NCBI RefSeq assembly: GCF_023055435.1
Contig: NW_025964334.1
Coordinates: 38,068,001-38,132,000 of the forward strand
Length of the DNA: 64,000 nt
Direction of reading: 5' to 3'
DNA from: Haliotis rufescens
Lineage: Eukaryota
Below the pieces are notes generated by a model. It made no database searches and was not told where the DNA came from. It saw only the letters and a program-made list of their open reading frames with translations. Position 1 is the stretch's first letter. Every line of letters starts with the position of its first letter. Shown here in pieces: positions 15,010-52,941 of the stretch. A program made the translations under genes and the position numbers.

Positions 15010-15283
15010 ATGGTGTTCAGGGTGGATTCAAACAATCCCCGCCCCCGGGGAAAACCGCAGGGTGAATTTGTGGATGTACGCGACAGTAGAAATTCCCATC
15101 CCCTGGGATTTGGAATATGGAAATATGTATTGTGCGTCGTTGTGTTATATGTGGGTATACCCCAGGGTGGGGCCCAGAACGCTAACCACATCGTTCTGAC
15201 CCCCCTCGGGAGGGGAGGGAAGGAGGTGGCCCTGCTCATTGTACCTGAAGTTGGATTAGAGAACACGGCGTATGAAGAATTAG
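15010..15283 (+). CDS. Alpha/beta-hydrolase-fold (Abhydrolase_5-like) protein, coding exon 1: signal/anchor segment and first beta strands
   Basis: ATG in caacATGG context; hydrophobic stretch GFGIWKYVLCVVVLYVGIP; IVLTP..VALLIVPEVGLENTAYEEL resembles this family's N-terminus; donor G|GTAAGA at 15284 (phase 1) joins in frame to 46054 giving AYEELAAVLQ. Confidence 0.8.
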
Positions 15284-15424
15284 GTAAGAGTTTGAAATCA
15301 TTCCGACATGACATACTATATGTACCACAATCATGCTTGATGCGAAAGGAGAAAACGTTAATTCTTTATCCATTATTGCGATTAATTTAATTCTCTGTCG
15401 TCAATGTACATTCACTTTGAATAA

Positions 15425-15642
15425 TTTGTTTTAGTTTAACGCCGCATTCATCAATATTCCAGCTATGTGTCGGCGGTTTGTGAAAAATCTAGTCTTGACC
15501 AGACATTCCAGTGATTGACGTCATGAGCATCAATCCACGTAATTCGATGTTATCAACCAAGTCACCGAGTCTGACCACCCGATTTATTTTGTTGCCTCGA
15601 CAAGCATAGATTACTATTCTTAACCGGAATCCCCGCGCGATC
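15425..15642 (-). mobile_element. SINE family A, diverged, at start of intron 1
   Basis: TSD ctttgaata. Confidence 0.75.
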
Positions 15643-16852
15643 TCTTTGAATATAGGATATTTGACGAGTTGAAATCATGATATGGAAGACAATGAAACTC
15701 TAAATTAATCAGTATCTGTTTGAACGAAGTCTAATATACCGATCGATGAACTATGATGCAACCCTAGTCTCCCGATGCCCTAGAAAAGTGAATTTTGGAT
15801 ACAACGAACTGGTTTCAAAGTCCCTGACAATGTCATATGTGTTTCATGAAAAGAAATAGTTTGTAGAAACCCATCATTTCCACTTGAGGCAGCTATAAAA
15901 GCTACTGTGTTACCCAAGTTTATGATTACAATTGGTTTTACAAACACATAGACTTCCACAAGCCTTAACAGAGAAAAAGATCAACACACGTTTTCTGACA
16001 ATTAGTAAAAATAGACATAATATTAGTCGTCGGCTTACATAACTTTACTTTTCCAACCGGCATATTTCCAACAACCTCTCCAATCTCCCATGCCTACGAG
16101 CACGTGCCTGTGAATTTATTGCTACAAGACGCGTGCTGTAATCCAATCTGAGAATGCCGAGGTCTCAATATGGTACACGTGTGGAAAACTCCGGACGGAA
16201 AACAATGCAATTATTCACATTACCAAACTATTTAGAGTCAATATTTGGGTGGGCACGTGTTTAGACTAAACATTTAGGATCCAGGAAAGGAAATTCGTGT
16301 TACATTATTGTTCGCATACATGTAAACGAGTGTATCTTTGGACAAGCAACAAGATCCTTTGAGACGGTAGACTAACATATAGTCCATGAAATCGTTTATT
16401 ACAAAATACATATCTCTCCTCTAAATTGTTTTTTCCCGGTGCTGATTTCATGTGTTGCCCATAGAGTGAGTGAGTGAGTTTGGTTTTACGCCGCTTTTAG
16501 CAATGTATCAGCAATATCACGACAGGGGACACCAGAAATGGGCTTCACACATTGTACCCAATCGAACCCGGGTCTTCGGCGTGACGAACTACCCGTGTGG
16601 CCTATGGAATAGAGCAGGAAATACTTCTTTTCATATTATCTGGTGATTTGTTTTCATAAAATACATCTATTACGCAGTCATGATGCAGGACTATGAATAA
16701 CACCGTGACAGGAATGTCCTCCGTGTTCCATGCGTGTCCTAAGAGCTGTCTCATGTAGACTTGGTAGTTACATTGTATGACCTGACCGATTCTTTGTCAT
16801 GGTGGGTGGTTACTCTTGCCGCCAACCACTGGTTCGCCAGGTCAGTATCATG

Positions 16853-17024
16853 TTTGTTTGTTTGTTTGTTTGTTGTTTAACGCCGCACTCAGCACTCGGT
16901 CGATCCACGCAATTGGGATACGGTGACATGCCTGACCACCCGATCCCGTCAGTCGCCTCTTACAACAAAGGTTACGGCAGGCATGGATTGCTGAACATCT
17001 ATTCTAACCCGGATCTTCACGCGT
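16853..17024 (-). mobile_element. SINE family A with deletions
   Basis: Head and tail match the A consensus. Confidence 0.78.
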
Positions 17025-17627
17025 CCAATATTATGGTGTATAGTCTAAAGGTGTAGGAATTACTATATATATTGTCGCCTTTGGATTGACAAAGCTTACA
17101 TAATTAGTGTTAATTAACACAGTCTCACGTGGGGGCGTTGGTCAACCCCTTGTTTATCTGACACACACTCAATTATTTACAAACCGTTATGATATAAACT
17201 ACCGGGCGGAAGGAAGGATACACTAAAAGATTACGTTATTAGAACGTTACTAGGCTGAAAACAGCTGTCGAAACACTGCAAAAGTCCATTACTATGATAC
17301 CTGTAGCAAATACATCACCATCGAATGACCATGTTTGTATGCACGTGTGACTTTGCTTGATTGAAACTAATCCCTTTTCTTGGCTTATCCTCGAGATGAA
17401 GTAATGAGTGTCTCTCTTCAGCACCACAAAGCAGTTATCATGTTTTGCCCTACGTTATGATCAAACTGTATCATATACGATTGCACGTTCGCGTCAGTCC
17501 TTGACTACAAGGGTCGTGAAGAAGAAGTGCTGGCTGCTTGTACTCGTCCGGACTAATGCCGATGATAAAACCATTGCAGCTCAAATACAGCCCGAAACAA
17601 GTCTGAGAAATGCTCTTGCTACTCCAG

Positions 17628-17938
17628 AGAGGTGAGATGAAATGCGGTTTAAGATAAAGGCACTTATATAAAGACGTGCATGCACGCGTGTGTGTGAGTT
17701 TGTGGCTGCTTGTACTGTCGGGACTAATGTCGATAATATAGTGCTAGCCCACTGAGAGACCATGCCGCAGTTTAACATGAATACCCCACTCAGACACAGT
17801 ATACTGACTCCGAGCCGACCAGACCTTGTTTTAGGCCCTAATGCCGAGCGCAGGGTAACAACAAGTACCATCTTTTAAATTCTTTTGGAATGATGCGGTC
17901 GGTGATCGAACCCCGGGCCTTCCACCATGGAGGCGGTC
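17628..17938 (-). mobile_element. SINE family C (V-SINE-like)
   Basis: Reverse copy of 4030-4376. Confidence 0.82.
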
Positions 17939-18526
17939 TACATGGGCTGGAATAACCTCACAGGGAATGTCGTGCTGACAGTGTACTTCCCGAAGATGAA
18001 GAATGTCGACGGCATAACACTGTTTAAGTGGTTCTCTTTTGACACTGATCAGTGTTTGTGAAAATAAAACAAGAAAAGATTTATTATCAAGGGTTCCTAA
18101 TATAGCCGCGCAACATCTCAGTGGATCAGCTGGCAACAGAATATTGTTCCAGGAGAGAAAGAAATCGCATCTTAACAACATGCGCGTTCCCTTTTTGTTG
18201 TTTCTGTTGGAAAGACAACACTGGTGACGTCATACTTTGTGCTTATTAACCTTCAAGTTATGCGTTAAATGTTGCTCTATTGGCGGATAGGATATAGACA
18301 CCAGTTGGTTACATACCGGTCAGAATAGGTGTCAGTAGCAGACTAAGTAAAATCAAGGGGTCATAATGGGAGACTTGGATGATGTCATAGTGCATGAGCT
18401 TGGGTCGTTGCTCATGCTATTAACCACTTCCTGGTCCATTCTCGATTATTTACAAGATGCTGCCACGTAGCCGGAATATTGTCGACCCCTGCGTAAAAGA
18501 ACATTCTCTCAGTTTTAAACAAGATG

Positions 18527-18761
18527 AGGGCGTGGGTGGCACAGTTGCATACGGACCCGCAATTCGTCCCTTGGGTTCGAATCCCGGTTCGCCCCGATTA
18601 TGTTTCTAGGTTTGTCAGTATCATACCCGTGCTCGTTGGTTTCACCAAAGTGGTAAACGTCTGAGACCTGCATCTTTTCGGGCTTTCCTCCCACATTAAA
18701 CTGACACGCCACGATATAACTGGAATAATGTTAAAAGCAGCGTTAAACACAACTCACTCAC
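18527..18761 (+). mobile_element. SINE family D (tRNA-Leu/Ser-like head)
   Basis: B box gggttcgaatccc; body ...cgggctttcctcccacattaa; shared tail plus (CACT)n. Confidence 0.8.
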
Positions 18762-19155
18762 TAACTTTAAAGTGATACTTTGCGGGAACAAATAACCACC
18801 TGTTGAAACCTATGGCTTAAACATTACTTTGCCTCTTTGTCTCGGGATTTTGAAAAGGTTCGAATCCGCGGACACTCCGGATCTAATCCTTGGCAACTTG
18901 GAATAGATAATTGTGAAAACTGACTAGTAGCTAGAACAGACATTTGAGTTGGGCGTGTTACTGGTGCATACAGTGTGCACAACCTAAATGTTTGGTATCC
19001 CCATAAACGTGTGTTGCATGACTTGCTAGTCATGATTGTGTAAACGTTGTTAAAGACAGACACCAACTTTAGGCCTAATAAAGGTTTATTTTGGCTCTGA
19101 TTACACTTAATTTAAAAAAAAGGGGAAAACTGTGAAGAAAGTTAGCAGTTTGGGG

Positions 19156-19623
19156 CAATCTCATTAAAATCAGATCTTAGTTCTCGCTACCGCTAAACAA
19201 AGATCTGAAGACATCCCATTACGACCGACCTTGCGCGAACTTTGACCGACCAATGGAATGACCAATGAGAAGGCAGCTTCCTCGTGCTTACGGCACTAAT
19301 TTCAAATTGGCGACTACGCTTCGAAACATATTTTGACAAATTCTCGATTACAAATTTGAAACCTGAACAAAAGAACATTCTGGAATGGCTAATAGATGGT
19401 CTAGATTGTATGGATTCAGTCGTTAAACCTGTAACTATCGTTCGGAGTTAAAGTTTTCGAGTTTGCAGGATTAAAAATCACATTCCGACTGTCACTTTCA
19501 TAATCTGGTAAGCGATGCTCTGATTGGTCGGATGAAAGGTCGTTCTGACGTGACCCTTAATGGGATGTCCTCAGATCTTTGTTTAGCGGCAGCGAGAACT
19601 AAGATCGGATTTTAATAAGATTG
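19156..19623 (+). mobile_element. AcademH-like non-autonomous DNA transposon with RecQ helicase relic
   Basis: ~65-bp TIRs CAATCTCATTAAAATC..., 10-bp TSD cagtttgggg; 19332-19412 reads FDKFSITNLKPEQKNILEWLIDGLDCM. Confidence 0.75.
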
Positions 19624-20256
19624 CAGTTTGGGGCATAATGTTTTTTGTGTGTGTTTTGTCTTTTGTCACAGAGAGTGCTGAATTAGCGTCAGCACAATAA
19701 ACTAGGACCGGACCTTTTATGTTTTATTGAAGATACCGAAGCTGTTTTCATAGGGAATCTGCAACCCTGAACTTACAAAGATTAAAAACCTGAATCAATG
19801 TTTCACTTTAGACATCCATAAAAACACGTTAGAAAAAAATCATACTTACAAAAAAAAGTAAAGGTATCAAGTATCATCCTAACATTTTTTTATGATCCTG
19901 TGTAACATGTTCGTCTTTTGAAGTTCAGTTTAAACCTCATTAACTCACATTTAGTGAAGTTTGAAGCACAGCCCTTGTATTTAATTCCGTTGCTAAATTG
20001 GGTACCAATATCCTTTGACGTAATGTTGTACAATGTGTGAAGGCAGTTCTAGGTTCTCGCCGTCGCGATATGGTTGGAATATTATGTTGCTAAAGGCGTT
20101 GCTTTATCTCATATCAAGTTACCCCGAAAACAGTCAATTTCACCCATCCAAGGTAATTTGAGATATTTCAACATGACGTTCATGACCATTAAAAGAAATT
20201 AATGTGATATAGTCTTGCTTAAACTTATTTCTTGTTATGCGTTAACTGAAATGTCG

Positions 20257-20514
20257 TTTGTTTGTTGTTTAACGCCGCACTCAACAATATTCGAGCTATA
20301 TGACGGCGGTCTGTAAATAATCGAGTCTTGACCAGACAATCCAGTGATTGACAACATGAGCATCGATCACAATTGGGATACGATGACATGCATCAACCAA
20401 GTCAGCGAGACTGACCACCCGATCCCGTGAGTCGCCTCTTACGACAAGCATAGTTGCCTTTTACGGAAAGCATGGGTTGCTGAAGACTTATTCTAACCCG
20501 GATCTTCACGGGTC
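20257..20514 (-). mobile_element. SINE family A, full length
   Basis: TSD ctgaa(a/t)tgtcg; followed by an opposite-strand partial copy at ~20572-20700. Confidence 0.9.
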
Positions 20515-23500
20515 CTGAATTGTCGAATCACAATAAGTAAATTACCATTAATTACAACAACAGAAAACCAGATTGCGTAGATCGTGGCCATGATGTCAAT
20601 CACCGGATTGCGTGTTCCAGACTCGAATAATTGCAGACCGCCGTCAAATAGCTGGAATATTGCTGAGTGCGGCGTTAAAACAACAAATAAAAATAACAAA
20701 ACACAAAAACCGAAAGTATTCATGTTTTCGATTCAGCATTTTGATTTTTGTAGCTGCTATGATGTACTTAATGTTGAAATGAGAAACCGGTGTCAAGGAA
20801 ACGGCCGCCGAATGAATAAATAGGATAACAAAAATAATCAGTATGTGCAGTCATTAGGAGAAACAGTTTCACAGGTGACGATCACCATGTCTTCGTGCAA
20901 CGTAACGTGATACTGTTTACAAAGAATGTTGATGTTTACCTACACAGTTCAGGACCTGTGGAGTCGGGAAATTGTTGCATAATATGATAATGTGCACAAA
21001 CCGTCTCGGCAACTCCCTAAATATTTGTCCCACAGCCAAACCGCTTATGTCATTTCGATAAACAGGACAAAGATGTTGATATCGTATCTACCGGCACGTC
21101 TCCGAATCAAGAGATGGTTGCTTAGCACTTCCGGTATGGTAGGACATGCGCAGGAGGATCTGGTGTCGAGTAAAAAGATGAAACAGCGCCGCCTATTGGG
21201 AAAACGTATCAGTACAACTCAAGACAGTTGTGACAACATCATTGCGATAGAACAACACGATGTCTTTGACTGTTTTCATAACCGCTTACTTTTTCTCAAC
21301 AGTTTAGGGGAGGTTGCGTGTTTGTTGATATCTCGGAAAAGGGCTAGAAATATGGATACTTGCAGGCAATGCAGTTTGAATGGAGAGAGGAAACGCCGAA
21401 ACGTGTGTTATTTCGTGAACAATGTTTGGTTAGAACTGTCGTACTCACGCTAGGGTGAGTGAGGATTGAAGCTGCATTCATGAGCATCTCTATGGTGATC
21501 TCGGGGTGGAATGAGTTTCAGTGCCGTGTGGTAACGTGTGAGAGCCGACTACATAAGTGCTCTGGACTGTAACGGCTCGTTGATTTCATTTTTGTCCTAT
21601 GCGACAAGCATAGTCGCCCTTTCGCATGGGTTGCTGAAGACCTATTCACCAAAACGAAAAATCGGCCACTGGGGTTAAATGGGCTCCCCGGTTTTATTTG
21701 GCAGTTTCCAAGTCAGTACGTTTCGCCTCGGATTTTTTAATGGCGTTACGGGCCTTTTCTATCTGCTCATCCGTTTACAGTGTCCGCAACATATGCCATG
21801 AATTAGTAGTAACATAGACTATGCCTTCAGTTGTCTATTCAGGGGATTAATCCCTGACAGATCTCCGGGGGCAGCAGGTGGCTTATGGTACCCAAACAGA
21901 ATGTCAGTAATAAAAAAGCTAGTTATCGACAAAACAAAATGTTCTAATAATTATTCACAATGTCAAGATCATAGGTCGTTTCACACACGCAACAATGTAT
22001 GCCATGTTGTTGTTTGGTCTGTGATTGGCCAACGTTTCAGCTTCATCTACGCTTGAATTGTCGACACGGCGGAAGATGACATATTCTTGCTAAACAGTCT
22101 TCTTCAGTCTTCTGAGAAAGGTTCTGAATGTACGCGGTAGGGTGGCACATGGGTACAATGCGTGAAGCCCATTTTGGTGTTCCCCGCCGTGATATTGCTG
22201 GAATATTGGTAAGAGTGGCGTAAAACTATACTCAGTCACTCACTGACTCAGAACGAACTCGCGAAAGTTTTTTTGGCTGCCATTTGGGTCGATTTCTCAA
22301 CACGAGCTTGGTCAATTTATCTCGGACAGACAGATCAGAGGGAAAACTCTGAAGCCAACATCACAGGATCTGGTAGTTGTAGACTTTGTACCATTTCCAG
22401 CTACACATGTGTTCACCATTTCAGCAAGAGAATCGTACAAAATCAACAATCCGCGTAAAACATAACGGATGCATAGCCGCTGAACACCCCTAGATGCTTT
22501 GTCACGCACCGCAGCGCTGGTAGCTTTTGGTCACGCCCACAAATGTTTGCTTTGGAAGCCGATTACAGAGGGTGTGATTTCAACACTTCTACTTCGACAT
22601 TTAAATACTTTCTACGAATGTCATGATTTTCTCTCTCTCGGAAATTGACTTCATATCTAGGAAAATTGGTATTCGCAACAAATCACAATCAATGTTTTCA
22701 CAATACTTGTCCAAAAAGTCTGTTCGTGTATTCGCAAGAATTACCAAGTATTTATAGATCCACAAATACAGCCTGACGCTAAATGAAAAGTGTTGATAGG
22801 AAGTTGGCGTTCTGCGTAGTTTAGGCCTATCATGGCATCCATTCATTCAACTATCGAAGCCTCATCTCTGCCGTCACATTTTCTTCTGCTAAAAACAACA
22901 CAAGACACTGAAAGATATGTGCCACCTTTTCACACTTGAGGATATTATGTGAGAGCTGTTCACACAGAGATACGCGGGCAGTGGTATCTAGACTGTACCC
23001 ATCTGCAGCTGTCGTCACAGCTGCCAGAACAGATGATCCCAGGATGCCTTGTGACCGGTACAGTCCGGATCAAATATAAGTTGCTATTTGTCGGTCAAAT
23101 TTGTGCGTGTTCTTGCGAATTCAAGGTTGCAAGTATAACTCAGTCTGTGTCACTGTAACGAAAGAACATAATTTATTTACTTTGATATTATTGCGAAACT
23201 TGTCCCAGAGAGTGTAGATGTATTCCATATGGCACGAGATTCCCCCGTGCACAGCACGTGTTGAAGACATAATGCGCGTCGAAAAAAGGCAATTGTCTCT
23301 ACTCAAAAACAAAAGTTACTTTTATCTAATTTATATATTAATAAAGGAAAGTTAGCTGTAATACTGATGGCGATGGGTTATACGGCTTTCCAGATTGATA
23401 AATCGACCATGTGTACTACAACTTCGAGGGTAGCTTGATAGCTTGACATTTAGTATCGAGATCAGATATTTTTCTCAGCTATGGGTGCAAAAAACAAAAC

Positions 23501-23847
23501 CAGATACTTTATTTTAATCTTTGAATTTGCCTTAATGTGGAAGGCAATTTTATCCCCCCCCCGTCATATAGCTGTAATATTGCTGAGTGCGGCGTTAGAC
23601 AACAAACAGACACTCGTGTAGATGACATGTATTGATTAGTATTATGTATGGGGGATGGGGGCAGAAAAGGATCAAACTTGGCCTTTGGGTTAATGATAAC
23701 AGTAAAAGAGCACAGTAGCCCCAAACACTTCCACCGTTATCCACTTGGCCCATGGGGATTTGTATGTTCATTTTCATATCTATACAGATGAATACAAGAT
23801 AGCAGACATTCGCTGACAAACATGTCGAACACCAGATGAATTGAATT

Positions 23848-24185
23848 GTGAAGATCCGGGTTAGCCTCGTGGTTAAAGCTTTTGCTCGTAACGCCTAAGA
23901 CCTGGGTTCGATTCCACACAAGGGTACAACGTGTGAAGCCCTGCCTTGATGTTGCTGAAATATTGCTAAAAGCGGCGTAAAACCATACTCAGGCCCTGCT
24001 TGTCGTAACAGGCGACTAACGGGATCGAGTAGTCTGGCTCGCTGACTTGGTTGATGCATGTCATCGTATCCAATTGCGAGGATCGAGGATCATGATGCGA
24101 ATTGTCTGGTCCAAACTCGATTGTTTAGAGACCGCCGTCATATAGTTATAATATTGCTGAGTGCGGCGTTAAACAACAAACAAAA
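23848..24185 (+). mobile_element. SINE family A interrupted by a family B copy (~23858-23990)
   Basis: A head gtgaagatccggg, then B body and tail, then A body cctgcttgtcgtaacaggcgactaac through tail. Confidence 0.75.
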
Positions 24186-25093
24186 TTGACCACTTTCTAA
24201 ATGACATTGTGTATATCCATAATAAGGTTTCGTTATTTAATCATATTTGTTCAAAAATAAGTATTTAGTTTGTGTTTCTTCAATTATTCCTTTTAGTCGC
24301 GGCAATAACGTTTATCAGATGACATTTGATGATAATTTTAGCGCTGCGTATTAATTTTACGAAATCTTCAGCCTTGCACAGTGACAATGTAAATATTCTT
24401 TTAAAATTTATGACTAAATTCCATCATCCGGAAAATAAGCTAAATCTCATTATCTAAGATTCAGTTGAAACAATTCCGTGGAGAAATATGATGACCGTGA
24501 GCTACAGAACATTACGAGACTAAACACATTTGTTAAGTAATAAACACTAGCCAACCGACGGCTTCGCATCTTTGAAGTTTAAAAACACAAGTGTCACTGT
24601 TATTGGTTCAGCAGACATTCAAGCACGTGACACCTCGTGCAGATGTCTCGCACGGGAAGCACGTGGAACACGAGCATCACATCTGTTGAATGAACACATT
24701 GTGATGAAACGTTAGCCTCCAAGGTTGCGTTTCGCAACAAGGGTCATTAGCCTCCTCTCTCGTTTGTAGTTCAAGGCTGTTTAGGAGTTAAGTATGTCAT
24801 GATGTAGGTTGCCGATAACGGGTATTCGTGTGTTCAATCTGAAATGTACGAATGTTCACAGTCATGAGAACTCTTATTATTGGACCAGTCCATTTCTAGT
24901 GCCCCCTGTTGTGATATTGCTGGAATATTGCTAAAAACGGCGTAAAACCTGAATCATTCACTCAGTATTGGAACCACGTCATATTTTAGGATGAGTTGTG
25001 ACGGGGGATACCTGGGTACAAGGCAACCTATGGCAAGTTTCTGGCACCCAGGATTGACAAGACTCAAGCTGCGTTAACCAATGTTAATCAAGG

Positions 25094-25411
25094 AGTGAGT
25101 GAGTTGGGTTTAACGCCGCTTTTAACAGTATTCCAGTTATATCGCGGCGTGCCCGCTTAATGTGGGAGGAAAGCCCGAAGTGATGCAGGTCTCAGACGTT
25201 TACCACTTCGGTGAAACCCACGAGCACGGGTATTGTGCTGACAGACCTAGAAACATAATCGAAGCGAACCCGCAATCATAGGTTTCTGGCGAGCCAAAGG
25301 ACGCAACTCTGCACAGCGAATCGCGGCGCCTTAGACGACTGGGCCACCCGTGCCCCCTTAGACGACTGGACCACCCGTGCCCCCTTAGACGACTGGACCA
25401 CCCGTGCCCCC
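25094..25411 (-). mobile_element. SINE family D with triplicated 27-bp 5' end
   Basis: TSD gttaatcaagg; head tggcccagtcgtctaaggcgcc. Confidence 0.88.
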
Positions 25412-25679
25412 GTTAATCAAGGGGGGAGAGAACCCGAAACTGAACGCGTAAAATATAGTGTTTTAAGTGAAAAACGACAATCTTATCCCATAGATTAAAA
25501 GATCAGGGTTCGATTCCGCACATTAACATAATACGTCAATTAACGTAATATGTTTCTGGTGTACAAAGTGTGAAGTCTATTCCTGTCCCGCGCCGTCACA
25601 TTGTTTGAATATTGCTGAAAGGGGCGTAAAACCATACTTACACATCAACATCCATCAAACATTTCGTATCTTTGTCACA

Positions 25680-25833
25680 AACTTGATTCATGCATGTCAT
25701 CGTATCCCAATTGCGTAGATCGATGCTCATGATATCAACCACTGGGTTCTCTGGTCTAGATTCGATTATTTACAATCCGCCGTCATATAGCTTGAATATT
25801 GCTGAGTGCTGCGTTAAACAGCAAACAAACAAA
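25680..25833 (+). mobile_element. SINE family A 3' half
   Basis: Matches the A 3' half; similar partial or diverged copies at ~26840-27065(+), 36020-36135(-), 42195-42298(+), 45390-45580(-), 49080-49270(+). Confidence 0.8.
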
Positions 25834-26334
25834 TATTCTTTGCGTTGGCAGCTGGTGTGAGACCCAATAGGCTTAGCGTCTACATCCCTGCCATAGATGA
25901 TTTTTTTCAAAGTTTGTTGCATGGTGTGACACTGTAATGCACTTATGCTGATTATTATTTTTGTGCCCCATGTATTTCACTTTTGATTTATATATTTCCG
26001 GTACACGCAAAATATCATACGTCAAACTGCTCCTCAAATTATGCAAATTGTTATGCAAATTAGGTTGGATTGCGACACCTCGCTATAAGCCGACCCGTCA
26101 CTGCACTGTTATGTCACTGGCAATTGCCTTTTTTGCATCCGTATTGTTAACCTGTGAATGTTAATCAGATATAATGCTCAATGAGGGCTGTTGGGTTGAA
26201 AGGTATGGCCCTTATCGTGATTATGTATAACTAAATGATCTTTCTCATTGTGGGAATTGATGAGGGATTGCCACTGATGACGCCCCTTCGGTATGTCGAT
26301 TTAGAAAAGATCGCGTAGGTGTGGTAAGAACACA

Positions 26335-26477
26335 GGTGAGGCGAGGTGAGGTGAGGTGGGGTGAGGTGAGGTGAGGTGGGGTGAGGTGAGGTGAGGTGGG
26401 GTGAGGTGAGGTGAGGAGAAATGGGGTTTAACGTCGCGTACAGGATTATCTCGCGTATATACTTATATAGCAACGTG

Positions 26478-26535
<58 letters not shown>

Positions 26536-26770
26536 TACTAGTCCAATTGTATATGCTAAGCCCACTGAGATACCATATGCCGCGGTTTAACATGAATACC
26601 CCACTCCGACACAGTATACTGACTCCGAGCCAACCAGTCCTTGTTTTAGCCCCCTAAATGCCTAGCGCAGGGTAACACCAAGTACCATCTTTTTGGGTGG
26701 AACCTTTTTGTTTTTTTCGTATGACGCGGGGATTGAACCCCGGGCCTTCCGGACACTCTACCACTAGGCC
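26335..26770 (-). mobile_element. SINE family C with expanded (GT)n and (GAGGT)n
   Basis: Same core; internal and tail microsatellites expanded. Confidence 0.82.
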
Positions 26771-29032: not shown

Positions 29033-29263
29033 CACTGTCGGGCAAAAGAAAGTATGCACTTTAAACTTGGATAAGACTAAACAATTACAAACGTTATCAA
29101 AACGCGAAGGCTGAAAACAATCGCCGAAACACCGCCAACTTTAGGTTCCTAACACAACTATGATACGCATATGAAATACATCAACATCGAATAACCATTT
29201 CTTGTTTGTTTCACTTTTAGCCACAATCAAACATAGGTGTATTCTTTCTTTTGCCCGGCAGTA
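29033..29263. mobile_element. Tc1/mariner-type MITE (family E)
   Basis: TIR cactg(t/c)cgggcaaaagaaag with TA flanks; partial copies at ~10255-10451, 17250-17335, 35208-35375, 41625-41831, 47950-48118, 51170-51329. Confidence 0.8.
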
Positions 29264-29454
29264 TATTACCTCTGTTACTGTGATGTTATGCATAATTTTG
29301 CATAATTATAAAGCAGTTGCACATTGACTATCGGCTGAACACAGATTCCAAATATAGGCCTCTGCACATGATAGGTCGCAGCTCAAATACAGCCTGAAAC
29401 CAGTCTGAGATTGGCTTTATTTCAGCAGATACTGATGGGCCACTTGCTACTCTA

Positions 29455-38296: not shown

Positions 38297-38299
38297 TAC

Positions 38300-38340
<41 letters not shown>

Positions 38341-38341
38341 T
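38260..38341. repeat. Compound microsatellite (ATT)n(AGT)n
   Basis: Visible directly; others include (TAG)n at 451-495, (ATC)n at 6570-6613 and 7005-7078, (GT)n at 45894-45941. Confidence 0.95.
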
Positions 38342-39861: not shown

Positions 39862-39983
39862 GGTGAGGTGAGGTGAGGTGAGGTGTGGTGAGGTGAGGTG
39901 AGGTGAGGTGAGGTGAGGTGAGGTGAGGTCAAATGGAGTTCAGCGTCGCGTCCAAGATTATGCACTTATATAGCGACGTTCAT

Positions 39984-40030
<47 letters not shown>

Positions 40031-40276
40031 AGTCCGGACTGCTGCCGATTTATAGTGCTAGCCCACTGAGATACCATGCCACAGTTTAACATGAATACCC
40101 TACTCAGACACAGTGTACTGACTCCGAGCCGACCAGTCCTTGTTTTAGCTCCTTAATGCCGGGCACCAGACAGGGTAACAACAAGTACCATATTTTAGCG
40201 TCTTTTGATATGACGCGACAGGGGATCGAACCCCGGACTTTCAGCTCTCGGGACGGACACTCTACCACTAGACCAT
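39862..40276 (-). mobile_element. SINE family C with expanded microsatellites
   Basis: Same core and tail. Confidence 0.85.
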
Positions 40277-41341
40277 TACTGAACGGGGCAAAAGAAATAT
40301 TCATCCACCTTTGATGTAGTTGTGTTTTGGACCTTAAGTTTTCCGCCGGAACTTTTGTAGTTTTTTTTTGTCCTTTTCAAGTTTATCCTTTTTTTTGCCC
40401 TGAATCTAATCTAATGTCCTTGTATCCCATTTTTTTACAAAAAGATGTACGGCTGTCCAAGTCGGCTAAGGCGCCGTAATTAGGCAGTAGAGAGTTGCGT
40501 CCCTTAGGCACACCAGGAATCTCTGATTGTGCGTTTGAATCACGGTCACCCCGATTATGTTTCTAGGTTTGTCAGCACCATACCCACTGTCGTCGGTTTC
40601 ACCAAAGTGGCAAATGTCTAAGGGCTTTCCTTCCACATCGGGCGGACACGTGATGATATATACTCACCGCCAAAAGAAACGCACACCGTGAATGAAGCTT
40701 CTTACATAAATCACTAATTTCCTATTCCCGCGGAATACATAAATTAGTTATGTTTAGTATAGATCTATTGTAAGGTACTCGTATCCAACTTTGATCCCTA
40801 CAGTCATAACCCACGGGATTGTCACAGACATTCTGTCTGACGTGGGGTATTTATTACAATCAATGCTGACAAGGGCGATTGAAATGTTGTCTCACATTGT
40901 CCGGTACAAGTAATCAGGATTAGATTGCTGTAAAGGTCAAAGGTCAACCAGCTCCTCTGGACAACAAGTCGTGGGAAGTTTATCATAACTCTCGGTTGAT
41001 TGACGGGGAAATTAGCATGCCTGCTGCACGTGACATTAAATGTCCTGAGGTAAATAATACATTGTAACATGTCATGTTGGTGATGCATTATGGGTAACCA
41101 AGCAGTGCCGACAGTCTCAACCATTAGGTAATTGATATCACTTAAAATTAGTTTTCAAATGTCGTTCTTGCGACATAATTAGGATTATCATGCAGTTGAT
41201 CACCGTTCACAAATGCTATCCATATATATATGACTGTTCAATTATATGACTCCTTTGTCAGCTATGTGAACATGTTAAATAAAGCAGAGCCCCATATGGA
41301 CATATATGTTCCTTTTTAAGATTGTTCTTTATTACAAAGAA

Positions 41342-41612
41342 GGGGACACGGGTGGCCGCGATTTGCTGTGCAGAGTTGCGTCCCTTGGGCACGCCAGAAA
41401 CCTATGATTGTGGGTTCGAATCCCGGTTCGCCACGATTATGTTTCTAGGTTTGTCAGCGCCATACCCGTGCTCGTGGGTTTCACCGAAGTGGTAAACGTC
41501 TGAGACCTGCATCACTTCGGGCTTTCCTCCCACATTAAGCTGACACGCCACGATATAACTGGAATAGTGTTAAAAGCGGCGTTAAACCCAACTCACTCAC
41601 TCACTCACTCAC
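41342..41612 (+). mobile_element. SINE family D
   Basis: TSD tatt(a/t)caaagaa; other copies at ~40445-40660(+), 42833-43010(+), 47086-47280(-). Confidence 0.88.
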
Positions 41613-43028
41613 TATTTCAAAGAAACTGTCGGGGAAAATAGCATAAACACATGAAAATAGGAGTTTACCATAAAATTACAAACCAGTCGCCGAAACACTG
41701 CAAACTTATGCTCCAAAACACAACTATGATACCCGTATCCGAAATACATCACCATCGAGTAACCATGTCTTGTTGGTTTCATATTTAGCCGCCATCATAC
41801 ACGAGTGGATACATGCTTTTGTCCGGCAGTGTAGGAGCCACGATATACAATATCTCCTGTGGCGCTAAAGGGCGGTAGGGGTAGCCTAGCGGTTAAGGCG
41901 TTCGCTCGTAACGCCGAAAGGAACGGGTTCAGTTCCCTACATTGGTACGATGTCAAACCCATTTATGGCGTTCCCGTCGTATTATTGCTGAAATATTGCT
42001 AAAAGAACCTTGACGTATAAATCTTGCTTACTCAATTATCTGGACGAATCTTAGACATCAAAATCAGAAAAAAACCATGGGAGAAAATGGAAATGAACCA
42101 TTGTTATACAACCGAAAATTAATGATAATTAATACTTGAAAACACAACACAATCAAGCATAACAATACATATTTCAACAGTTGCTTAGATCCATGATCAT
42201 GATGTCAATCACTGGATTGTCTGATCCAGATTTGATTATTTACAAACCGCCGTCAAATAGCTGGAATACTGAGTTCGGCATTAAACGACAAACAAACATA
42301 GCAGCTCGTGTTTGACAGTGCAAACGCCACTTCGTGTTTGACAGTATAAATATCCGTTGTTTGACAGTACATGTATCAGCTCGTGTTTAATAACATGAAA
42401 TAACGCTACTCATAAATAGTTGACCTTTATAAAGGCCGCACTTGACACTGGGGGTACAGCTGTCACAATGCCTTGTTATCGTAATGAAAGACTAAGGTAA
42501 TAAATAGCCACTGTATTGTTCTGGGGTTGCTGTTTCAACACAGTTAAAAACGTCACAGAAGGCGATAAAAATGAAACAATTTATACATCTAATTGTAGTG
42601 GGATTTGAAACTTCCGGTGTCTTGTCAGTGTGGAAAAGAATATTCTTTTTAATTAAAACACCTTGTGAGTTGAAGATGATAAATGCTTTTGAAGTGTGGA
42701 ATATGAAGTTATTATTTAAACATACATGAATAAATCTATGAATAAGTTGCTTAAACGTAATGTTTGAGGTCATAATCAGGGACAGTTTCTGCATTTGTAA
42801 CAAAAGCATCTGTATTAAATACGTCGACACAACTCGCTGTGAAGAGTTGCGTCCCTTATGCGTGCCAGAGCCTGCTGATATTGGGTCGATTCTTTGCATT
42901 CATGGTCACGCCAGAAACCTATGATCGTAGGTTCGAATGCCGGTTCGCCCTAATTCTCCTGCCACGTCGTGATATGATGTAGATACTGTTGATAGCGGCG
43001 TTAAACCCAACCCAATGTCTTCAAGTAA

Positions 43029-43193
43029 TGAGTGAGTGAGTATGGTTTTAAGCCGCCTTCGGAAATATTTTACCAATATCGCGGTGGGGGACACCAGAAG
43101 TGGGATTCACACCCTGTACCCATGTTGGGAATCGAACCCGGATCTTCGGCGTGACGAGCGAACGCTTTGACCACGAGGCTACCTGACCGCCCC
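43029..43193 (-). mobile_element. SINE family B
   Basis: Full-length reverse copy. Confidence 0.85.
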
Positions 43194-44711
43194 TTGAAGC
43201 TATGAAGTGGGGTCTGTGTGTGATGTCTCCATGCTGGCCACGTGAAGCATGGGAAGTAAGCCAGGCCGAGATGTAGTAAGGAACATGTCAACTTGAACAT
43301 AGGAAACAGGATAACCACTGAACGGCATGTGTTATGTTGCGGAAGGAAAAGCTCCTCACGATCACATTTGTGTTTGTATGGATCAGGCATATCATTCTCC
43401 CGAGAAGACTGTTGAGGATCAGAGCGGAAGATTGTGTGAATATAAAAGTCAACGCCAGAGAACGACCACTGTCGATGATGCTAGTATGAAATACATTCCA
43501 TTCGGCTAAGAGAACAACCATTTGATGTAAGCCCCGCCCCAACCCCTCCCCCCTTCCCTGGCATGGTATGGTAAAGAAGACATCAGACCTCGCAGTGCTA
43601 GTTTCGCGTTGACCATTCTTCTGAATGCCAGAAATACTTGAGAAGTAATGTCTGTTTATCTTGATCCGTCTGTAGATGACCACCCGCAACAGATGCCAGA
43701 CAATGGACAATGGACCACCTCAGTTCTGCTTACAGAAATGGTATCTTGTGTCTGTTTTTATAGACGGAACGCCGTCAGACATAAACATCAAGTGACTGGT
43801 TTTCCTGCGGCGGGCAACGAAAGCTGTGTTGTTAAGGTTGAGTTAGGTACACCCAGAGAGAGTGATGATTGATAAATATACAATTAAATCCGATGGTGTT
43901 GTGTAATGGGACAAAAGAAAATAGTATAGAATAGTTCATTTAGCTGATGAGGCTGGACAAGGAAAGGATGACACGATGCAGACATAACTAAAATTGACAA
44001 TATCTTTTTCTCCTTTACCGCGTGAAGAATGTGGCGGTTCTAGTGTGAACCACGTCTCTTTGTTGGAACTCCGGGTCCGAATAGATCACCAATACCTCCA
44101 GTGTGTTTCTCATGGGATGCTTGTCAGAAGAGCCGACCAAACTGAGAATCAGATGGTTGCAATGTTTGACTGGCTGGTTGTGTGTCGGTGTGGAGAGTTG
44201 CCAATGCTGTCAGCTACTGGTACACATGACCAAGAGTCCAGTAGTTACTGGCTTCCAATGGGATATGTCTGATTGCGGCGGAAAATGACAGTCACTCGTT
44301 TTCTCAGACATTGCTTTAGGAAATGAATTTAATACGCCTGAGGCAATGTAGAATAGTGTTATGCTATTGCCATAAACAAGACGATCTAACGGTCATAGTC
44401 TGATGTCATTAGGGACAGAAACGACCATCATTAACATAATCATGTAGGAAAAGATAGCACTGGTACTTCAGGTGTTCACAAAGATCGAATGTATTGATAA
44501 AAAGATTTTTTTAAATGCAATTAACAACACTTATACGCCTTAACCACTAATATCCCACTACTCAAAAGAGTAATATACTTTTAAGTACAGGACAGATTAC
44601 TGATAGTAATCTGAAAGAATCGGGCCTGTCCTTAACTTCTTTTGAGTAGTGCTTTAGTTGATTTTAAAATATCCGTACATTGCAAAGGAGGCACGAACAT
44701 AATGAACAGGA

Positions 44712-44874
44712 GTGAGTGAGTGAGAGAGTGGGTATGGTTTTACGCCGCTTTTAGCAATATTCACGGCGGGGGACACCAGAAATGGGCTTCACACATTGTA
44801 CCCATGTCGGGAATCGAACCCGGGTCTTCGGCGTGACGAGCGAACGCTTTAACCACTAGGCTACCCGATCGCCC
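44712..44874 (-). mobile_element. SINE family B, young
   Basis: 14-bp TSD cataatgaacagga. Confidence 0.92.
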
Positions 44875-45889
44875 CATAATGAACAGGAAGCCTTCAAATA
44901 TCAACTAGCAATGCAATAATAATACCTCGACACTATAAGAAGCATACTGTATATTAGTTCCCCCTTTGACAATGGCTTATAGGAACGTCAGATTTTGAAC
45001 ATGTTCCCGTCACATTCTTAGGAACAACACTTATGACTGCAAATATAGAACAAAGCTACATCTACGATCGACACAATCTTTGTAATCCATTTATTACTTT
45101 CCCACGTTGATAACAACTACCACGTAAACAAAATGATGTGTCTGTTGTTAAGCACTCGCCGCTCTGTAGCCTGACCTTGACCTCGTTCCACCAAGCGATC
45201 TTAGCTCTTAGATCTCAGTGACTTACATACTAACGTAGACCTATCCAAGCCGTAACGAGAAGTTCGGTGAGTGGCGCTCTCGTGAAAGAGGAACCAAATG
45301 TAAGATAATATTTTACAGACGCTTTAAACAATTTTTGAAGACTTAGAGTTTGTTGTTTGGCGCCTCACTGAGCAATGTACCAGCTATATTATTGTTTGTT
45401 TGTTTATTTGTTGTTCAACGACGCACTCATCAAGATTCCAGCTATATGATGTCGGTCTGAATAAAACTGACATCATGAGCATCGATTTATTTAATTGGGA
45501 TACAATGATATGCATCAACCAACTCACAAGCCTGACCAGCCGATCACGTCGGTCGCCTCTTACGGCAAGCATTGCCGCCTGTTACGAGTCTTGTCAAGGA
45601 ACTTTCAACATTGATTCACGAAGGACAGATAATCCGTATTTCCGAGCGGCGAGTAGGTTGTTGTTTATATTTGTCCCTGTCTACTGAGATAAAGTAGGAA
45701 ACATGGGTCTCCTGGTCTCAGGTGGAGCCGTCACCTCACATGGCGTATTGTTAGAACGACGTCACATAAATAGTTTGTAACGTCAATTATTCGTGATGAT
45801 GTCTTGTTGCGAAGGGCATCTTTGCAAACAATGAACACAATGCTACAACTAGCCAATATATATACAATAAAGAATATAATATGTCCTCA

Positions 45890-45936
<47 letters not shown>

Positions 45937-46053
45937 TGTGTACAGGTATCAGTAGCCAGGCTGAAACTGTATGTCATACTGTTGGTACAGATGCCGTTAC
46001 TGATTCTGTATCGGGTGGATTATATCACAACAATCTGCATCTGCTTGTTTCAG

Positions 46054-46236
46054 CGGCTGTCCTGCAGTTCGAGAGCGGGATCACTCTGTGGGTGTGTCTG
46101 CTGGACACTAAGACAGACGGACCACTGACCCCGGACAGTCTAGGGGAGACGGTCATCATGGGTCTGGAGGAGCTGACGGTCAAGGGGATGAACGCAGAGG
46201 ACGCCGCCATCTTTGTTGCTGGCCACGGCCGAGGCG
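46054..46236 (+). CDS. Alpha/beta-hydrolase-like protein, exon 2 (nucleophile elbow IFVAGHGRG/G)
   Basis: Acceptor ctgcttgtttcag, donor G|GTGAGA; GC3-rich codons; translation AVLQFESGITLWVCLL...AIFVAGHGRG. Confidence 0.85.
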
Positions 46237-46869: not shown

Positions 46870-47044
46870 GGGCCATGCTTGCAACATATGTAGCTGAGGT
46901 ACCAGATTTTTTCAGTGGGATTATATTGATGGGTACATATCTAAAACCACAGAAGAAGGCATCTGCATTTCCAGTCCCTATCATGACGATCACTGGAGAC
47001 CTCGACGGGATAACCCGGATAACGAGCGTGGCCGAAGCGTTTAG
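46870..47044 (+). CDS. Alpha/beta-hydrolase-like protein, exon 3 (GIILMGTYL...PVPIMTITGDLDG, acid residue)
   Basis: Acceptor cttttcag, donor AG|GTGAGT; phases match neighbours; P-x-x-T-I-x-G-D-L-D-G acid motif. Confidence 0.9.
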
Positions 47045-48328: not shown

Positions 48329-48611
48329 GTCAATGAGAGATGACGTGGCCTTTGACTCGGACCTCATATACCACAGCCCACTGGTCATTATGGACGGCTT
48401 CAACCACGGCGTCTTCTCGTCCGGTGAACTCCCTGGGAACATGCAGACTCTGGATATAAGGCCCGAAGGCTCCATAGAAGACGGCCAGCGATTGGTCACC
48501 AACTGTACGGCGTTGTTTATTGCCCACACAATGAACGCGCCTGCCGCTTTCGTAAAGGTGGCCAAAATACAGTTTAGAGAAGCATACGACAAAGCGGTAT
48601 TCATAACAAAG
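48329..48611 (+). CDS. Alpha/beta-hydrolase-like protein, exon 4 (VIMDGFNHGVF, histidine motif)
   Basis: Acceptor cttcccag with phase-2 join (AG+G = Arg); donor AAG|GTTCGA is weak, and an alternative phase-0 donor GCG|GTATTC lies 15 nt upstream. Confidence 0.85.
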
Positions 48612-49302: not shown

Positions 49303-49416
49303 CCGATCCTAGAGGTGAAGGAGATGACGCAGAACCCCGATGGTGAATCCTACTTCGTCAGGGTGGCGCAGAAGTGGTTGTCCGGGCTCCAGGGAGACCA
49401 GTCCACGAGGCTCACA
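49303..49416 (+). CDS. Alpha/beta-hydrolase-like protein, exon 5
   Basis: Acceptor catttacag, donor ACA|GTCAGT; 38 codons PILEVKEM...QSTRLT. Confidence 0.85.
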
Positions 49417-50132: not shown

Positions 50133-50375
50133 GTGGAGAGTTACATTGTAGGGGAAGCCACTGAAATCCCGCCCTCGGTGCTAGCGGAGGGGCACCAATC
50201 AGTAGTCATAACGTTCTCTGACGTGTTGCGCGCGCAGACACAGGAAACCGATGACGATGAGAAACCGGAAGCACCCGTTGAGATAGCAGCCCGGATGTTG
50301 AGCCCTCAGAGGATAAAGAAAGAGTTGGGAGACACAAACATCACAAAGTTGTACACATGCAGGGATCTCAACTAC
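50133..50375 (+). CDS. Alpha/beta-hydrolase-like protein, exon 6
   Basis: Acceptor cccctttag, donor TAC|GTAAGC; 81 codons VESYIV...EIAARMLSPQRI...TCRDLNY. Confidence 0.88.
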
Positions 50376-50511
50376 GTAAGCATTAAAAGAATTGCGTAGT
50401 GGAAATCATACGAATAACAGGAAACAAAATGGAGTTGCTAAATCAAATAAGAAATTATATTCTTTGAAGGTGTTAAAATAAACTCGTTAATAAACATTCA
50501 TGATAAACTGC

Positions 50512-51118
50512 CAATCTCATTAAAATCAGATCTTAGTTCTCGCTATCGCTAAACAAAGATCTGAGGAGATCCCATTACGGGACACGTAAGAACGACCCTT
50601 CATCCGACCAATCCAAGAGTCGCTTACCAGATCATGAAAGTGACAGTCGGAATGTGTTTTCTTATCATGCAACCTCGAAGACGTAAACACGTTGTATTCC
50701 GAACGACAGTTACGGCCCGTACGACTGATTCCGACAAAATTATCGTCTATCTCTCGCGTCCGTGAGATACACATTTGAACGGAGGAGGCGTTGCTGAGTA
50801 CGTGGGGTTCACTGCCATACGATCTTAACCGTATATATGACATTCCGGAATGTTCGTTCGTTCAGTTTTCAAAATTTTAATCAAGAACTGTGTCAACATA
50901 ATTTTCAAGCATGGTCTGAAATGGAAGTCGCCAGGTTGAAACGAGTGCTGTAAAGCTCGAGAAAGCTGCTTTCTAATTTGCTGATGTCGACTTCATGTTA
51001 GCCATTTCAGTGGTCGGTCAAAGTACGCGAAAGATCGTTCTGACTTGACCCGTAATGGGATGTCCTCAGATCTTTGATTATTGGCAGCGAGAACGTCGAT
51101 CTGATTTTAATGAGATTG
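50512..51118 (-). mobile_element. Second AcademH-like element (intron 6)
   Basis: Same TIRs, 10-bp TSD gataaactgc; minus strand reads LKTERTNIPECHIYG*DRMAVNPT. Confidence 0.75.
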
Positions 51119-51752
51119 GATAAACTGCGCATGCTGACCAAAAGAATGTAGTCAATTGAATTTATTAACAAAAATTACATAACGTTACGTGGCGGAACGC
51201 AGAACCACTGCAAACTTAACACCAATATGAGACCCATATCAAATACTTCACCATCAAATAGCCATTTCTGGTTTGTTTCATTTTTAGCCACCATCAAACA
51301 TGGGTATACTTTCCTTTGCCCGGCAGTGTATTAGCTTCACTGTCTTCACACCATGGGTGTATATTTTCTTTTTCCCAAGAGTGTATTAGTTTTTCTGTTT
51401 CAATACAATTTGAAATGCTAATCTGACATGAGGCCATTTTCCGAAATGTTCCACTTCACCAAAACTGCTTGACCGTGCTTTAATCTTTGCGTCTTAATTT
51501 GTTTTCGAGGGGTTTTCAGTCCACAAGTATTATTGATTCGGTTAACTAAGTAAACATATATAATAATTATCACCTTTCCCTGTAAAATAAGTGACCAAAG
51601 CATCATGAAAAAAGTCAGCTTGATGCAGTGTACACCTGGTATAAGCTAAGCGCCATTCTTTTTTCCTCTTCTCGAACTTCCATGTATGTTTTGGAAATAT
51701 AATACTCAAAAGAAGTTGATCACATTTGGATAAATCAAAGCGATAAAACCCT

Positions 51753-52209
51753 TACCATATTCCATAGAAATCTCTGCTAAAAGCTGAGTCGATTGTACGA
51801 TTCCGAATATATCATGAGCATGTGTTTATGAATCACTATCACATAGTGATGATACTAGGTGTTCGCGAAAAGGTGAGCGTATCCTGCCCCACCGGTCACA
51901 CCTATCACAAACACAAGCAAAGGCAAATTCATTGTTCTCCCGAAAAAAACACGGGAATATATGGTACAAGTCAAAATAGGGAATTGCATCAGACATCATT
52001 TTTTCTCACCAATTTGGAAATGTTTACCATACAAGTTTTTGAAAGCTTTACTGAGGCCTTGAATGTTGTAACCCTGATCAAACAACTCTGTGCAAGAGTC
52101 GTATGACGCTCTTGAGATCTTGGTAGAAAGAGCATGCTCGATTGTATCTCAAAAGTTGTGAACAGTAAGCACCAAAGCCTGGAGCAGCTGGAATGTTGCT
52201 GGACAAATG
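51753..52209 (-). mobile_element. Penelope-like retroelement 3' fragment (RT C-terminus plus 3' UTR)
   Basis: Minus strand reads HLSSNIPAAPGFGAYCSQLLRYNRACSFYQD, then with frameshifts ...DQGYNIQGLSKAFKNLYGKH. Confidence 0.8.
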
Positions 52210-52638
52210 CCTAATATAAGATACTGCTGGTACTTCTTCTGCAGGTGGAACTGAAAGAGGAAGGAATAGAAAGGGTAGTCACATAGCTATTGCCGCGGAG
52301 CAGTATCAGATCATGCAGAGTCGGTTTGGGGGTTTCAATGAGTATCACTTTCTAAAATACAAATAAATGTGTTTCGTCATAAAAAAAGAAGAAGTATGAT
52401 TTCAAAGAAGGAGTGTTTTATATGGAAATCTACAGTAAGCGTCTTTAGGCATTTTAACAGATGTATGCTTAAAAGAACAAAATGTTTTGGTGGGTGTAAA
52501 GATGTCATCTTATTATGATTGGTAACTCCTCATACTTCCGAACTTGTTGTTGCATCATATCTTTGAAACAAATATTGGACCATGATAGCATCAACTCGTT
52601 CAGAATACGTTATGCAAATACTACCTTCCTATTTGCAG

Positions 52639-52941
52639 GGATCCTACCTGACCGCGTACAACAAGGCGTCAGAAACTGCCCGCAGACGTTTCGACAACAG
52701 CCACAAGGGCATTATTTTCCACACGGATATGTTGGTTCAGAGTGACCTAGCCTGGAAACTCACCCAGCTATTGGTTGAAGTCAAGGGGCACGAGCTTCAT
52801 GTGACGGCGATCTCGTACATGACGCCAAACTTAGATACTCTTGGAGAAAGAGCTGGTTTATATTACTGCAAAATACTTCCTCCCGACAGAGCTATAGAAT
52901 GGATTTATGTGGATTCACTGAGATTAAATATGCCGTCCTGA
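52639..52941 (+). CDS. Alpha/beta-hydrolase-like protein, terminal exon 7
   Basis: Acceptor ctatttgcag; ends ...GLYYCKILPPDRAIEWIYVDSLRLNMPS-TGA; total spliced CDS is 1575 nt and uninterrupted. Confidence 0.88.
   Translation, partial: GSYLTAYNKASETARRRFDNSHKGIIFHTDMLVQSDLAWKLTQLLVEVKGHELHVTAISYMTPNLDTLGERAGLYYCKILPPDRAIEWIYVDSLRLNMPS

What the first reader, a model, noticed from the sequence alone, without database searches (positions are those of the whole stretch)
15010..52941. Alpha/beta-hydrolase gene with the catalytic serine replaced by glycine (probable pseudoenzyme)
Seen: seven exons splice into an intact 524-aa frame. The elbow reads IFVAG-H-G-R-G-G, with codon GGC at 46227-46229, one base from Ser AGC. 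The acid motif (TITGDLDG) and histidine motif (GFNHGVF) are retained. Established: alpha/beta hydrolases use a G-x-Nu-x-G nucleophile, and non-catalytic members such as neuroligins act as adhesion or ligand-binding proteins. Inference: a conserved non-catalytic extracellular binding or structural protein with an extra C-terminal domain (...YCKILPPDRAIEWIYVDSLR). The adjacent Arg suggests real remodelling rather than a single sequencing error.
Basis: partly seen in the sequence, partly recalled or inferred. Interest (0 to 1): 0.7.

Follow-up and report, generated by a model that had tools for sequence, protein, structure and literature searches.

The report
Ancient serine-less esterase copy in molluscs
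This abalone gene is transcribed and encodes an esterase-shaped protein whose catalytic serine is a glycine, a change shared by its counterparts in snails, bivalves and cephalopods, so it is likely a long-kept non-enzymatic secreted protein that probably works through a second domain of no recognised fold.

Summary
Seven exons give 524 aa; the nucleophile position is Gly150 (GGC, 46227-46229), with Asp198 and His237 kept. Spliced contigs in 4 of 4 runs support all six introns. It is not a sequencing error: Gly is in 14 of 14 rows of one clade (support 100/100) spanning gastropods, bivalves and cephalopods. The protein belongs to an uncharacterised eukaryotic Abhydrolase_5 family; the closest solved relative is the bacterial esterase AroC (Z 22). 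Two Ser-type paralogues lie on the same contig. Other pocket residues drift, and conservation shifts to the C-terminal domain (5 of 5 sister pairs against 2 of 8). Corrections: Arg151 is not conserved, the C-terminal domain is family-wide, and Ser-to-Gly recurs in the family (13 changes on a 134-row tree). Best reading: a secreted pseudo-esterase with a plugged pocket. A Glu/His/Asp serine-free catalyst is not excluded (about 0.15).

The parts
14732..15009 (+). Transcribed 5' leader (part of exon 1) with 7 upstream ATGs opening frames of 1-15 codons
   Evidence: contigs start at 14732-14756 and run to 15283 without a break in 4 of 4 runs; ATG scan
15010..15283 (+). Exon 1 coding part, aa 1-91: polar N-region, one hydrophobic stretch (about aa 32-50, likely signal peptide or anchor), first strands, oxyanion loop
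   Evidence: no signal-peptide predictor was available
15247..15249 (+). Glu80 (GAA), at the place of the oxyanion-loop Gly of Ser-type members (P-G-A; AroC G68)
   Evidence: E in 12 of 14 orthologues, G in 26 of 26 Ser-type rows; AroC mapping
15284..46053 (+). Intron 1, 30,770 bases, GT..AG
46054..46236 (+). Exon 2, aa 92-152, ends in the nucleophile elbow
   Evidence: the same phase-1 intron follows the elbow in both Ser-type paralogues
46227..46229 (+). Gly150 (GGC) at the nucleophile position
   Evidence: aligned to the Ser of AroC and of cutinases; Gly in 15 of 15 orthologue rows
46870..47044 (+). Exon 3, aa 153-211, with the triad acid Asp198 (47004-47006)
   Evidence: Asp in 14 of 14 orthologues
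48329..48611 (+). Exon 4, aa 211-305, with the triad His237 (48405-48407) and linker helices
   Evidence: His in 14 of 14 orthologues
49303..49416 (+). Exon 5, aa 306-343, start of the C-terminal domain
50133..50375 (+). Exon 6, aa 344-424, C-terminal domain, Cys419 (50358-50360)
   Evidence: this Cys is invariant in the 99-row alignment
52639..52941 (+). Exon 7 coding part, aa 425-524 and stop, C-terminal domain, Cys501 (52867-52869)
52942..53300 (+). 3' untranslated part; contigs run on past the end of the laid stretch
   Evidence: table 8

Best explanation
The gene is an expressed, conserved mollusc paralogue of an uncharacterised two-domain Abhydrolase_5 esterase family with Gly in place of the catalytic Ser; it likely cannot hydrolyse esters and likely serves as a secreted binding or scaffold protein working mainly through its C-terminal domain. 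Shown: gene model, splicing, fold class, Gly150, retained Asp198 and His237, Glu80, orthology across three mollusc classes, relaxed pocket residues, and higher relative conservation of the C-terminal domain. Inferred: (1) a Ser-type ancestor duplicated before gastropods, bivalves and cephalopods split, and one A-to-G change turned AGY into GGY; (2) without a nucleophile no acyl-enzyme forms; (3) the Glu80 carboxylate fills the oxyanion hole and the space left by the Ser, bonding to the backbone NH of residues 81 and 151 or to His237, so the pocket is plugged; (4) the His-Asp pair is kept because it holds the fold; (5) the protein is exported and binds an unknown partner through clade-specific residues of the C-terminal domain (W330, F371, R403, Y424, Y431, G448, Y484).
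For: Gly in 14 of 14 rows of a clade with support 100/100 whose branching follows cephalopods, bivalves and gastropods (also recovered under a mixture model). Of 57 positions at least 85% conserved in 27 Ser-type rows, 39 are kept and 18 lost in the clade; 10 of the 18 lie in the oxyanion loop, the N-P motif, the elbow or the loop after the His (80, 81, 118, 148, 150-152, 241, 243, 249) (assignment to the pocket is by motif and by AroC numbering). Nu+2 is Gly in 27 of 27 Ser-type rows but only 2 of 14 orthologues, and includes Pro. The hydrolase domain is less conserved than the C-terminal domain in 90 of 91 orthologue pairs against 26 of 300 Ser-type pairs, and in 5 of 5 against 2 of 8 non-overlapping sister pairs (Mann-Whitney p 0.0016). 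Across the family all 26 Gly rows lost the G-A oxyanion pair against 16 of 95 Ser rows (9 independent pairs, median p 0.016). One cuttlefish-cluster orthologue lacks both Ser and Glu. Purifying selection: 12 synonymous and 2 non-synonymous among the 14 listed coding differences, both non-synonymous in the N-terminal leader. Paralogue Ser codons are AGT. Two invariant Cys and a hydrophobic N-terminus point to export. Precedents: Thr11 blocks the oxyanion hole in HbHNL at the residue before the NH donor (PMC3444685, passages); DPP10 has Gly for Ser and is non-catalytic (PMC4873792, passages).
Against: Asp198, His237 and His149 are 14 of 14 and Glu80 12 of 14 in the clade, more than a dead site needs, and pocket-motif columns are still more alike (0.45) than the rest of the hydrolase domain (0.34). 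Serine-free catalysis by the His-Asp pair is known in this fold (PMC10548524, passages). The model's coordinates could not be read, so the Glu80 position is not measured. No partner, tissue or localisation was determined. The Ser-type comparison set mixes paralogues and non-mollusc taxa. The synonymous count comes from cut tables.
Confidence: 0.6

Rival explanations
1. It is still an enzyme with a changed mechanism: Glu80 takes over as nucleophile (Glu-His-Asp, like the Asp-nucleophile hydrolases) or positions water or substrate for His237-Asp198 acting as a general base.
For: Glu80 in 12 of 14 orthologues with His and Asp invariant; an acid appears at this position in 13 of 26 Gly rows against 2 of 95 Ser rows, in several separate lineages. 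The same position switches mechanism in hydroxynitrile lyases. Dienelactone hydrolase has a catalytic Glu36 (PMC4108320, passages); that it is the equivalent position is recalled, not tested.
Against: After allowing for relatedness the acid link is not significant (2.4 of 9 pairs the same way, none the other way, median p 0.5). The cuttlefish-cluster orthologue has Gly there. Substrate-lining residues vary widely in the clade. Other Gly lineages have lost the His too (Tyr, Tyr, Phe).
Confidence: 0.15
2. It is a small-molecule receptor or carrier: the disabled pocket still binds an ester or lipid without cleaving it.
For: His149, Asp198, Asn236, His237 and Phe240 are kept; the fold is modelled with high confidence.
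Against: Positions 81, 118, 151, 152, 176, 239 and 241 drift in the clade, and conservation is higher in the other domain.
Confidence: 0.13
3. It regulates its active Ser-type paralogues by pairing with them.
For: Two Ser-type paralogues are in the same genome, Gly copies arose repeatedly in the family, and AroC crystallised as a homodimer.
Against: The gene lies 22 Mb from the paralogues, and its clade-specific conserved residues differ from theirs.
Confidence: 0.1
4. It is a sequencing error, a rare allele or a decaying pseudogene.
For: GGC is one base from AGC.
Against: Gly in 15 of 15 orthologue rows, spliced contigs, intact frame, excess of synonymous differences.
Confidence: 0.01

Closest known systems
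[quoted passage not shown]
   Same: Best solved match by structure (Z 22.1, rmsd 2.5, 195 aligned) and by family profile (E 9.5e-14); same motif order P-G / G-H-S-L-G-G / L-D-G / N-H-x-x-F.
   Different: AroC is a bacterial single-domain enzyme with Ser, active on esters (PMC12177695, abstract and section 2.6). This protein has Gly150 and Glu80, a hydrophobic leader and a further domain of about 210 aa.
Ser-type members of the same eukaryotic two-domain family (e.g. the paralogues at G000:C556:60.57 and 60.59 Mb; database name 'Alpha/beta hydrolase fold-5 domain-containing protein')
   Same: Same seven-exon layout, same intron after the elbow, same C-terminal domain and Cys pair.
   Different: They keep P-G-A and G-H-S-L-G-G; about 30% identity. 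None of them is characterised in the papers searched.
DPP10, a non-catalytic alpha/beta-hydrolase-fold protein with Gly for Ser
   Same: Gly at the catalytic Ser; extracellular; works by binding (PMC4873792, passages).
   Different: DPP4 family with a beta-propeller and a membrane anchor binding Kv4 channels; no such domain here. Neuroligins and NDRG are recalled as further analogues and belong to other families.
[quoted passage not shown]
   Same: Show that a side chain at the oxyanion-loop Gly, or loss of the Ser, can mean a new reaction rather than none.
   Different: They have Thr or Asn and keep Ser, or have Ala at the elbow; none has the Gly plus Glu pair in the passages read.

Membership tests
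Alpha/beta hydrolase fold-5 (PF12695) | Profile match above the curated cut-off | tested here: met
   P0001 (five substitutions from the window protein over aa 54-524) 29.2 bits against cut-off 27; the Gigantopelta orthologue scores 24.4, under the cut-off
Alpha/beta hydrolase fold-5 (PF12695) | Alpha/beta-hydrolase core fold | tested here: met
   model pLDDT 94.2; Z 22.1 to AroC, 17-19 to chlorophyllase and cutinases
Serine hydrolase (Ser-His-Asp triad) | Ser, Cys or Asp at the nucleophile elbow | tested here: not met
   Gly150 aligns with the catalytic Ser
Serine hydrolase (Ser-His-Asp triad) | Triad acid and histidine | tested here: met
   Asp198 and His237, 14 of 14 orthologues
Serine hydrolase (Ser-His-Asp triad) | Open oxyanion hole with Gly before the NH donor | tested here: not met
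   P-E-V instead of P-G-A; by sequence only, geometry not measured
[quoted passage not shown] | Fold kept, catalytic residue lost, gene conserved and expressed | tested here: met
[quoted passage not shown] | No catalytic activity | not testable with these tools
   needs an assay
Neuroligin / cholinesterase-like adhesion proteins | Carboxylesterase type-B domain of about 550 aa plus membrane helix and cytoplasmic tail (features recalled) | tested here: not met
   hydrolase domain is about 230 aa, Pfam gives Abhydrolase_5 and not COesterase; the only strongly hydrophobic stretch is N-terminal
Asp-nucleophile hydrolases (epoxide hydrolases, dehalogenases) | Asp at the nucleophile elbow | tested here: not met
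   Gly150
Any solved fold, for the C-terminal domain | Structural match | tested here: inconclusive
   model of orthologue fragment P0045, pLDDT 92; best Z 4.3 of 48,161 chains

The most novel reading that the evidence does not exclude
Molluscs keep an ancient alpha/beta-hydrolase in which catalysis has moved from the elbow serine to a glutamate in the oxyanion loop, giving a Glu-His-Asp site, and the family has reached this Gly-plus-acid arrangement several times independently; it is capped by a domain with a fold not yet in the PDB.
Probability: 0.13. Interest if true: 0.75.

Novelty: new member of a known kind. Interest (0 to 1): 0.42.

Why it matters
Serine-to-glycine pseudo-hydrolases are a known kind, so the change alone is not surprising. 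This one adds a single-copy clade kept across three mollusc classes with no described function, a family in which the same loss recurs many times together with remodelling of the oxyanion loop (a natural series for studying how enzymes become pseudoenzymes), and a well-modelled C-terminal domain without a solved match. Active-type paralogues in the same genome make a clean side-by-side test possible. If Glu80 proved catalytic, it would be a new active-site arrangement for the fold.

Tried and rejected
Sequencing error or local allele: rejected by orthologues. Arg151 as a functional replacement: rejected, not conserved. Alternative donor at 49420: gives a frameshift, and contigs use 49416. The Ile-rich N-terminus of record P0001: contigs here run unbroken through 14732-15283, so the window's ATG 15010 model stands. 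Single origin of all Gly forms among 52 rows: rejected (AU p 5e-53, 25 against 27 rows; the group was defined by the trait after a first tree had been seen). A specific link between Ser loss and an acid at position 80 across the family: not significant after allowing for relatedness. C-terminal domain: no Pfam family, no Foldseek match at E 0.001 in PDB or viral libraries, best Z 4.3, no usable Atlas hit; this does not prove a new fold. A weak sequence hit of paralogue P0190 to a carbonyl reductase (E 0.0017) was not supported by the fold searches. The 'GPI inositol-deacylase' label on the Lymnaea orthologue is an automatic name; PGAP1 matched only 5 of 99 rows weakly. A pairing prediction with a Ser-type paralogue was not available, so nothing is known on that. 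No holder was on record as RNA in the run search. Literature: nothing on this family or these genes in searches for Abhydrolase_5 with mollusc, six orthologue gene ids, or pseudoenzyme terms; main texts only, so supplementary proteome tables and subscription journals could hold them. One cited review on oxyanion motifs was not held. Rows dropped: 17 fragments of 152 for the large tree and one more misaligned fragment; the Bulinus model has an aberrant N-terminus, aligning E and L, so I count Glu80 as 12 of 14.
Full report
Observation. The elbow is G148-H149-G150-R151-G-G, with GGC at 46227-46229; the acid is D198 and the histidine H237. Contigs from 4 of 4 laid runs (3 studies) skip the five downstream introns exactly. 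The same contigs, recognised by length and depth, cover about 14732-15283 and continue at exon 2 in adjoining record coordinates, which supports the 30.8-kb first intron. The runs are only guessed to be RNA, but intron-free contigs are best explained as transcripts. The base at 46227 itself was not read out from them.

Identity. The protein is 99% identical to a Haliotis cracherodii record over exon 4 and 87% to a Haliotis rubra record, so the window is from an abalone. These score above the Abhydrolase_5 cut-off. A model of the H. cracherodii protein (118-row alignment, pLDDT 94.2) matches AroC, 9EH6, best (Z 22.1, rmsd 2.5, 195 aligned), then chlorophyllase and cutinases. AroC is a bacterial fold-5 esterase (PMC12177695; abstract, passages and section 2.6 read). 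Its motifs align one to one with the family profile, and its numbering places G68, H125, L127 and F207, named in the paper as active-site residues, on E80, H149, R151 and F240 of the window protein (my mapping).

Family. A profile search found 811 proteins at E 0.001; the best 150 were fetched. Of 152 aligned rows, 143 fill the nucleophile column: 108 Ser, 31 Gly, 4 others. Named members include molluscs, a hemichordate, a sea urchin, crustaceans and protists (30 of the rows were looked up). The C-terminal domain is family-wide. The window's genome has two Ser-type paralogues in tandem 22 Mb away on the same contig, plus a stray last exon; both have AGT at the Ser and the same intron after the elbow. 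A search with a member of another Gly lineage found no further copy (such counts are lower bounds).

The Gly clade. With the trait columns left out, 14 Gly rows form one clade (100/100; 100 under a mixture model) that divides into cephalopods, bivalves and gastropods (names; three of the rows are unnamed). Gly150, His149, Asp198 and His237 are 14 of 14. The change therefore predates the split of these classes. Among the 14 coding differences listed for the laid contigs, 12 are synonymous, against 23% synonymous sites (p 1.4e-6; tables were cut).

What else changed. Arg151 is not conserved. The clade-wide second change is in the oxyanion loop: P-G-A in 26 of 26 Ser-type rows becomes Glu80 in 12 of 14 orthologues; the exceptions are a cuttlefish-cluster protein with Gly and a snail model with an aberrant start. 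Of 57 positions well conserved in Ser-type rows, 18 are lost, 10 of them in pocket motifs. Conservation moves to the C-terminal domain: for Haliotis against Patella, identity is 0.40 (hydrolase domain) and 0.55 (C-terminal) in the Gly pair, but 0.60 and 0.49 in a Ser pair; sister pairs give 5 of 5 against 2 of 8 (p 0.0016). Orthology of the Ser pairs is not proven.

Recurrence. Ser and Gly change 13 times on a 134-row tree and 4 times among 52 rows, where one origin is rejected. All 26 Gly rows with both columns have lost the G-A pair, against 16 of 95 Ser rows (independent pairs, median p 0.016). An acid at position 80 is enriched (13 of 26 against 2 of 95) but not significantly once relatedness is allowed for. 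Gly is the likely outcome because AGY to GGY is one transition and the elbow residue has a strained backbone (strain: PMC3444685, passage; the link is my inference).

Mechanism. Without a nucleophile the acyl-enzyme route is closed (established for the fold). The residue before the oxyanion NH donor is the one whose side chain blocks the hole in HbHNL; a carboxylate there would be a natural plug. With the drift of pocket residues and the shift of conservation, this favours a non-catalytic exported protein acting through its C-terminal domain (0.6). Export rests on the hydrophobic N-terminus, two invariant cysteines and two glycosylation sequons; no predictor was run. Against this, His, Asp and Glu are all well kept, and the fold supports serine-free chemistry by the His-Asp pair (PMC10548524, passages), so a changed enzyme stays open (0.15). 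Ligand carrier (0.13) and regulator of the paralogues (0.1) are the other rivals. Model coordinates could not be read, so none of the geometry is measured.

C-terminal domain. A model of an orthologue fragment (P0045, 33% identical, pLDDT 92) shows a mixed alpha/beta domain with no clear solved match and no Pfam family. This is inconclusive for a new fold.

Known or new. Gly-for-Ser pseudo-hydrolases are known (DPP10: PMC4873792, passages; neuroligins and NDRG recalled). Earlier notes of this scan report the same pattern in other families (not checked). I found no paper on this family or clade (main texts only). Verdict: a real, new member of a known kind, with an unusual Gly-plus-Glu site worth an assay; interest 0.42.

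Noticed in passing
G000:C556:60567800-60602120 (L007-L010, L015): Two tandem Ser-type paralogues with the same seven-exon layout, followed by an isolated copy of the last exon at 60608798-60609052.
   Followed up: partly
proteins P0018, P0026 (Mytilus), P0033, P0193 (Elysia), P0061 (krill), P0107 (Diphylleia): Separate Ser-to-Gly lineages in the same family; the two Mytilus proteins have also lost the triad His (Tyr).
   Followed up: partly
window 49303-52941 (aa about 315-524): The family's C-terminal domain is confidently modelled, has an invariant Cys pair and has no Pfam or clear PDB match.
   Followed up: partly
window 14732-15009: Seven upstream ATGs with short frames in the transcribed leader.
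   Followed up: no
window 29677-29749 (-): A tRNA-Ser(AGA) call inside intron 1; may be a tRNA-derived repeat.
   Followed up: no
window 31519-34665 and 46600-46859: Intronic minisatellites: 30/91-bp and 43-bp (47 copies) units in intron 1, a 33-bp unit in intron 2.
   Followed up: no
record P0001, residues 1-22: The database model has an Ile-rich start unlike the window's exon 1; possibly a gene-model artefact or another first exon.
   Followed up: partly
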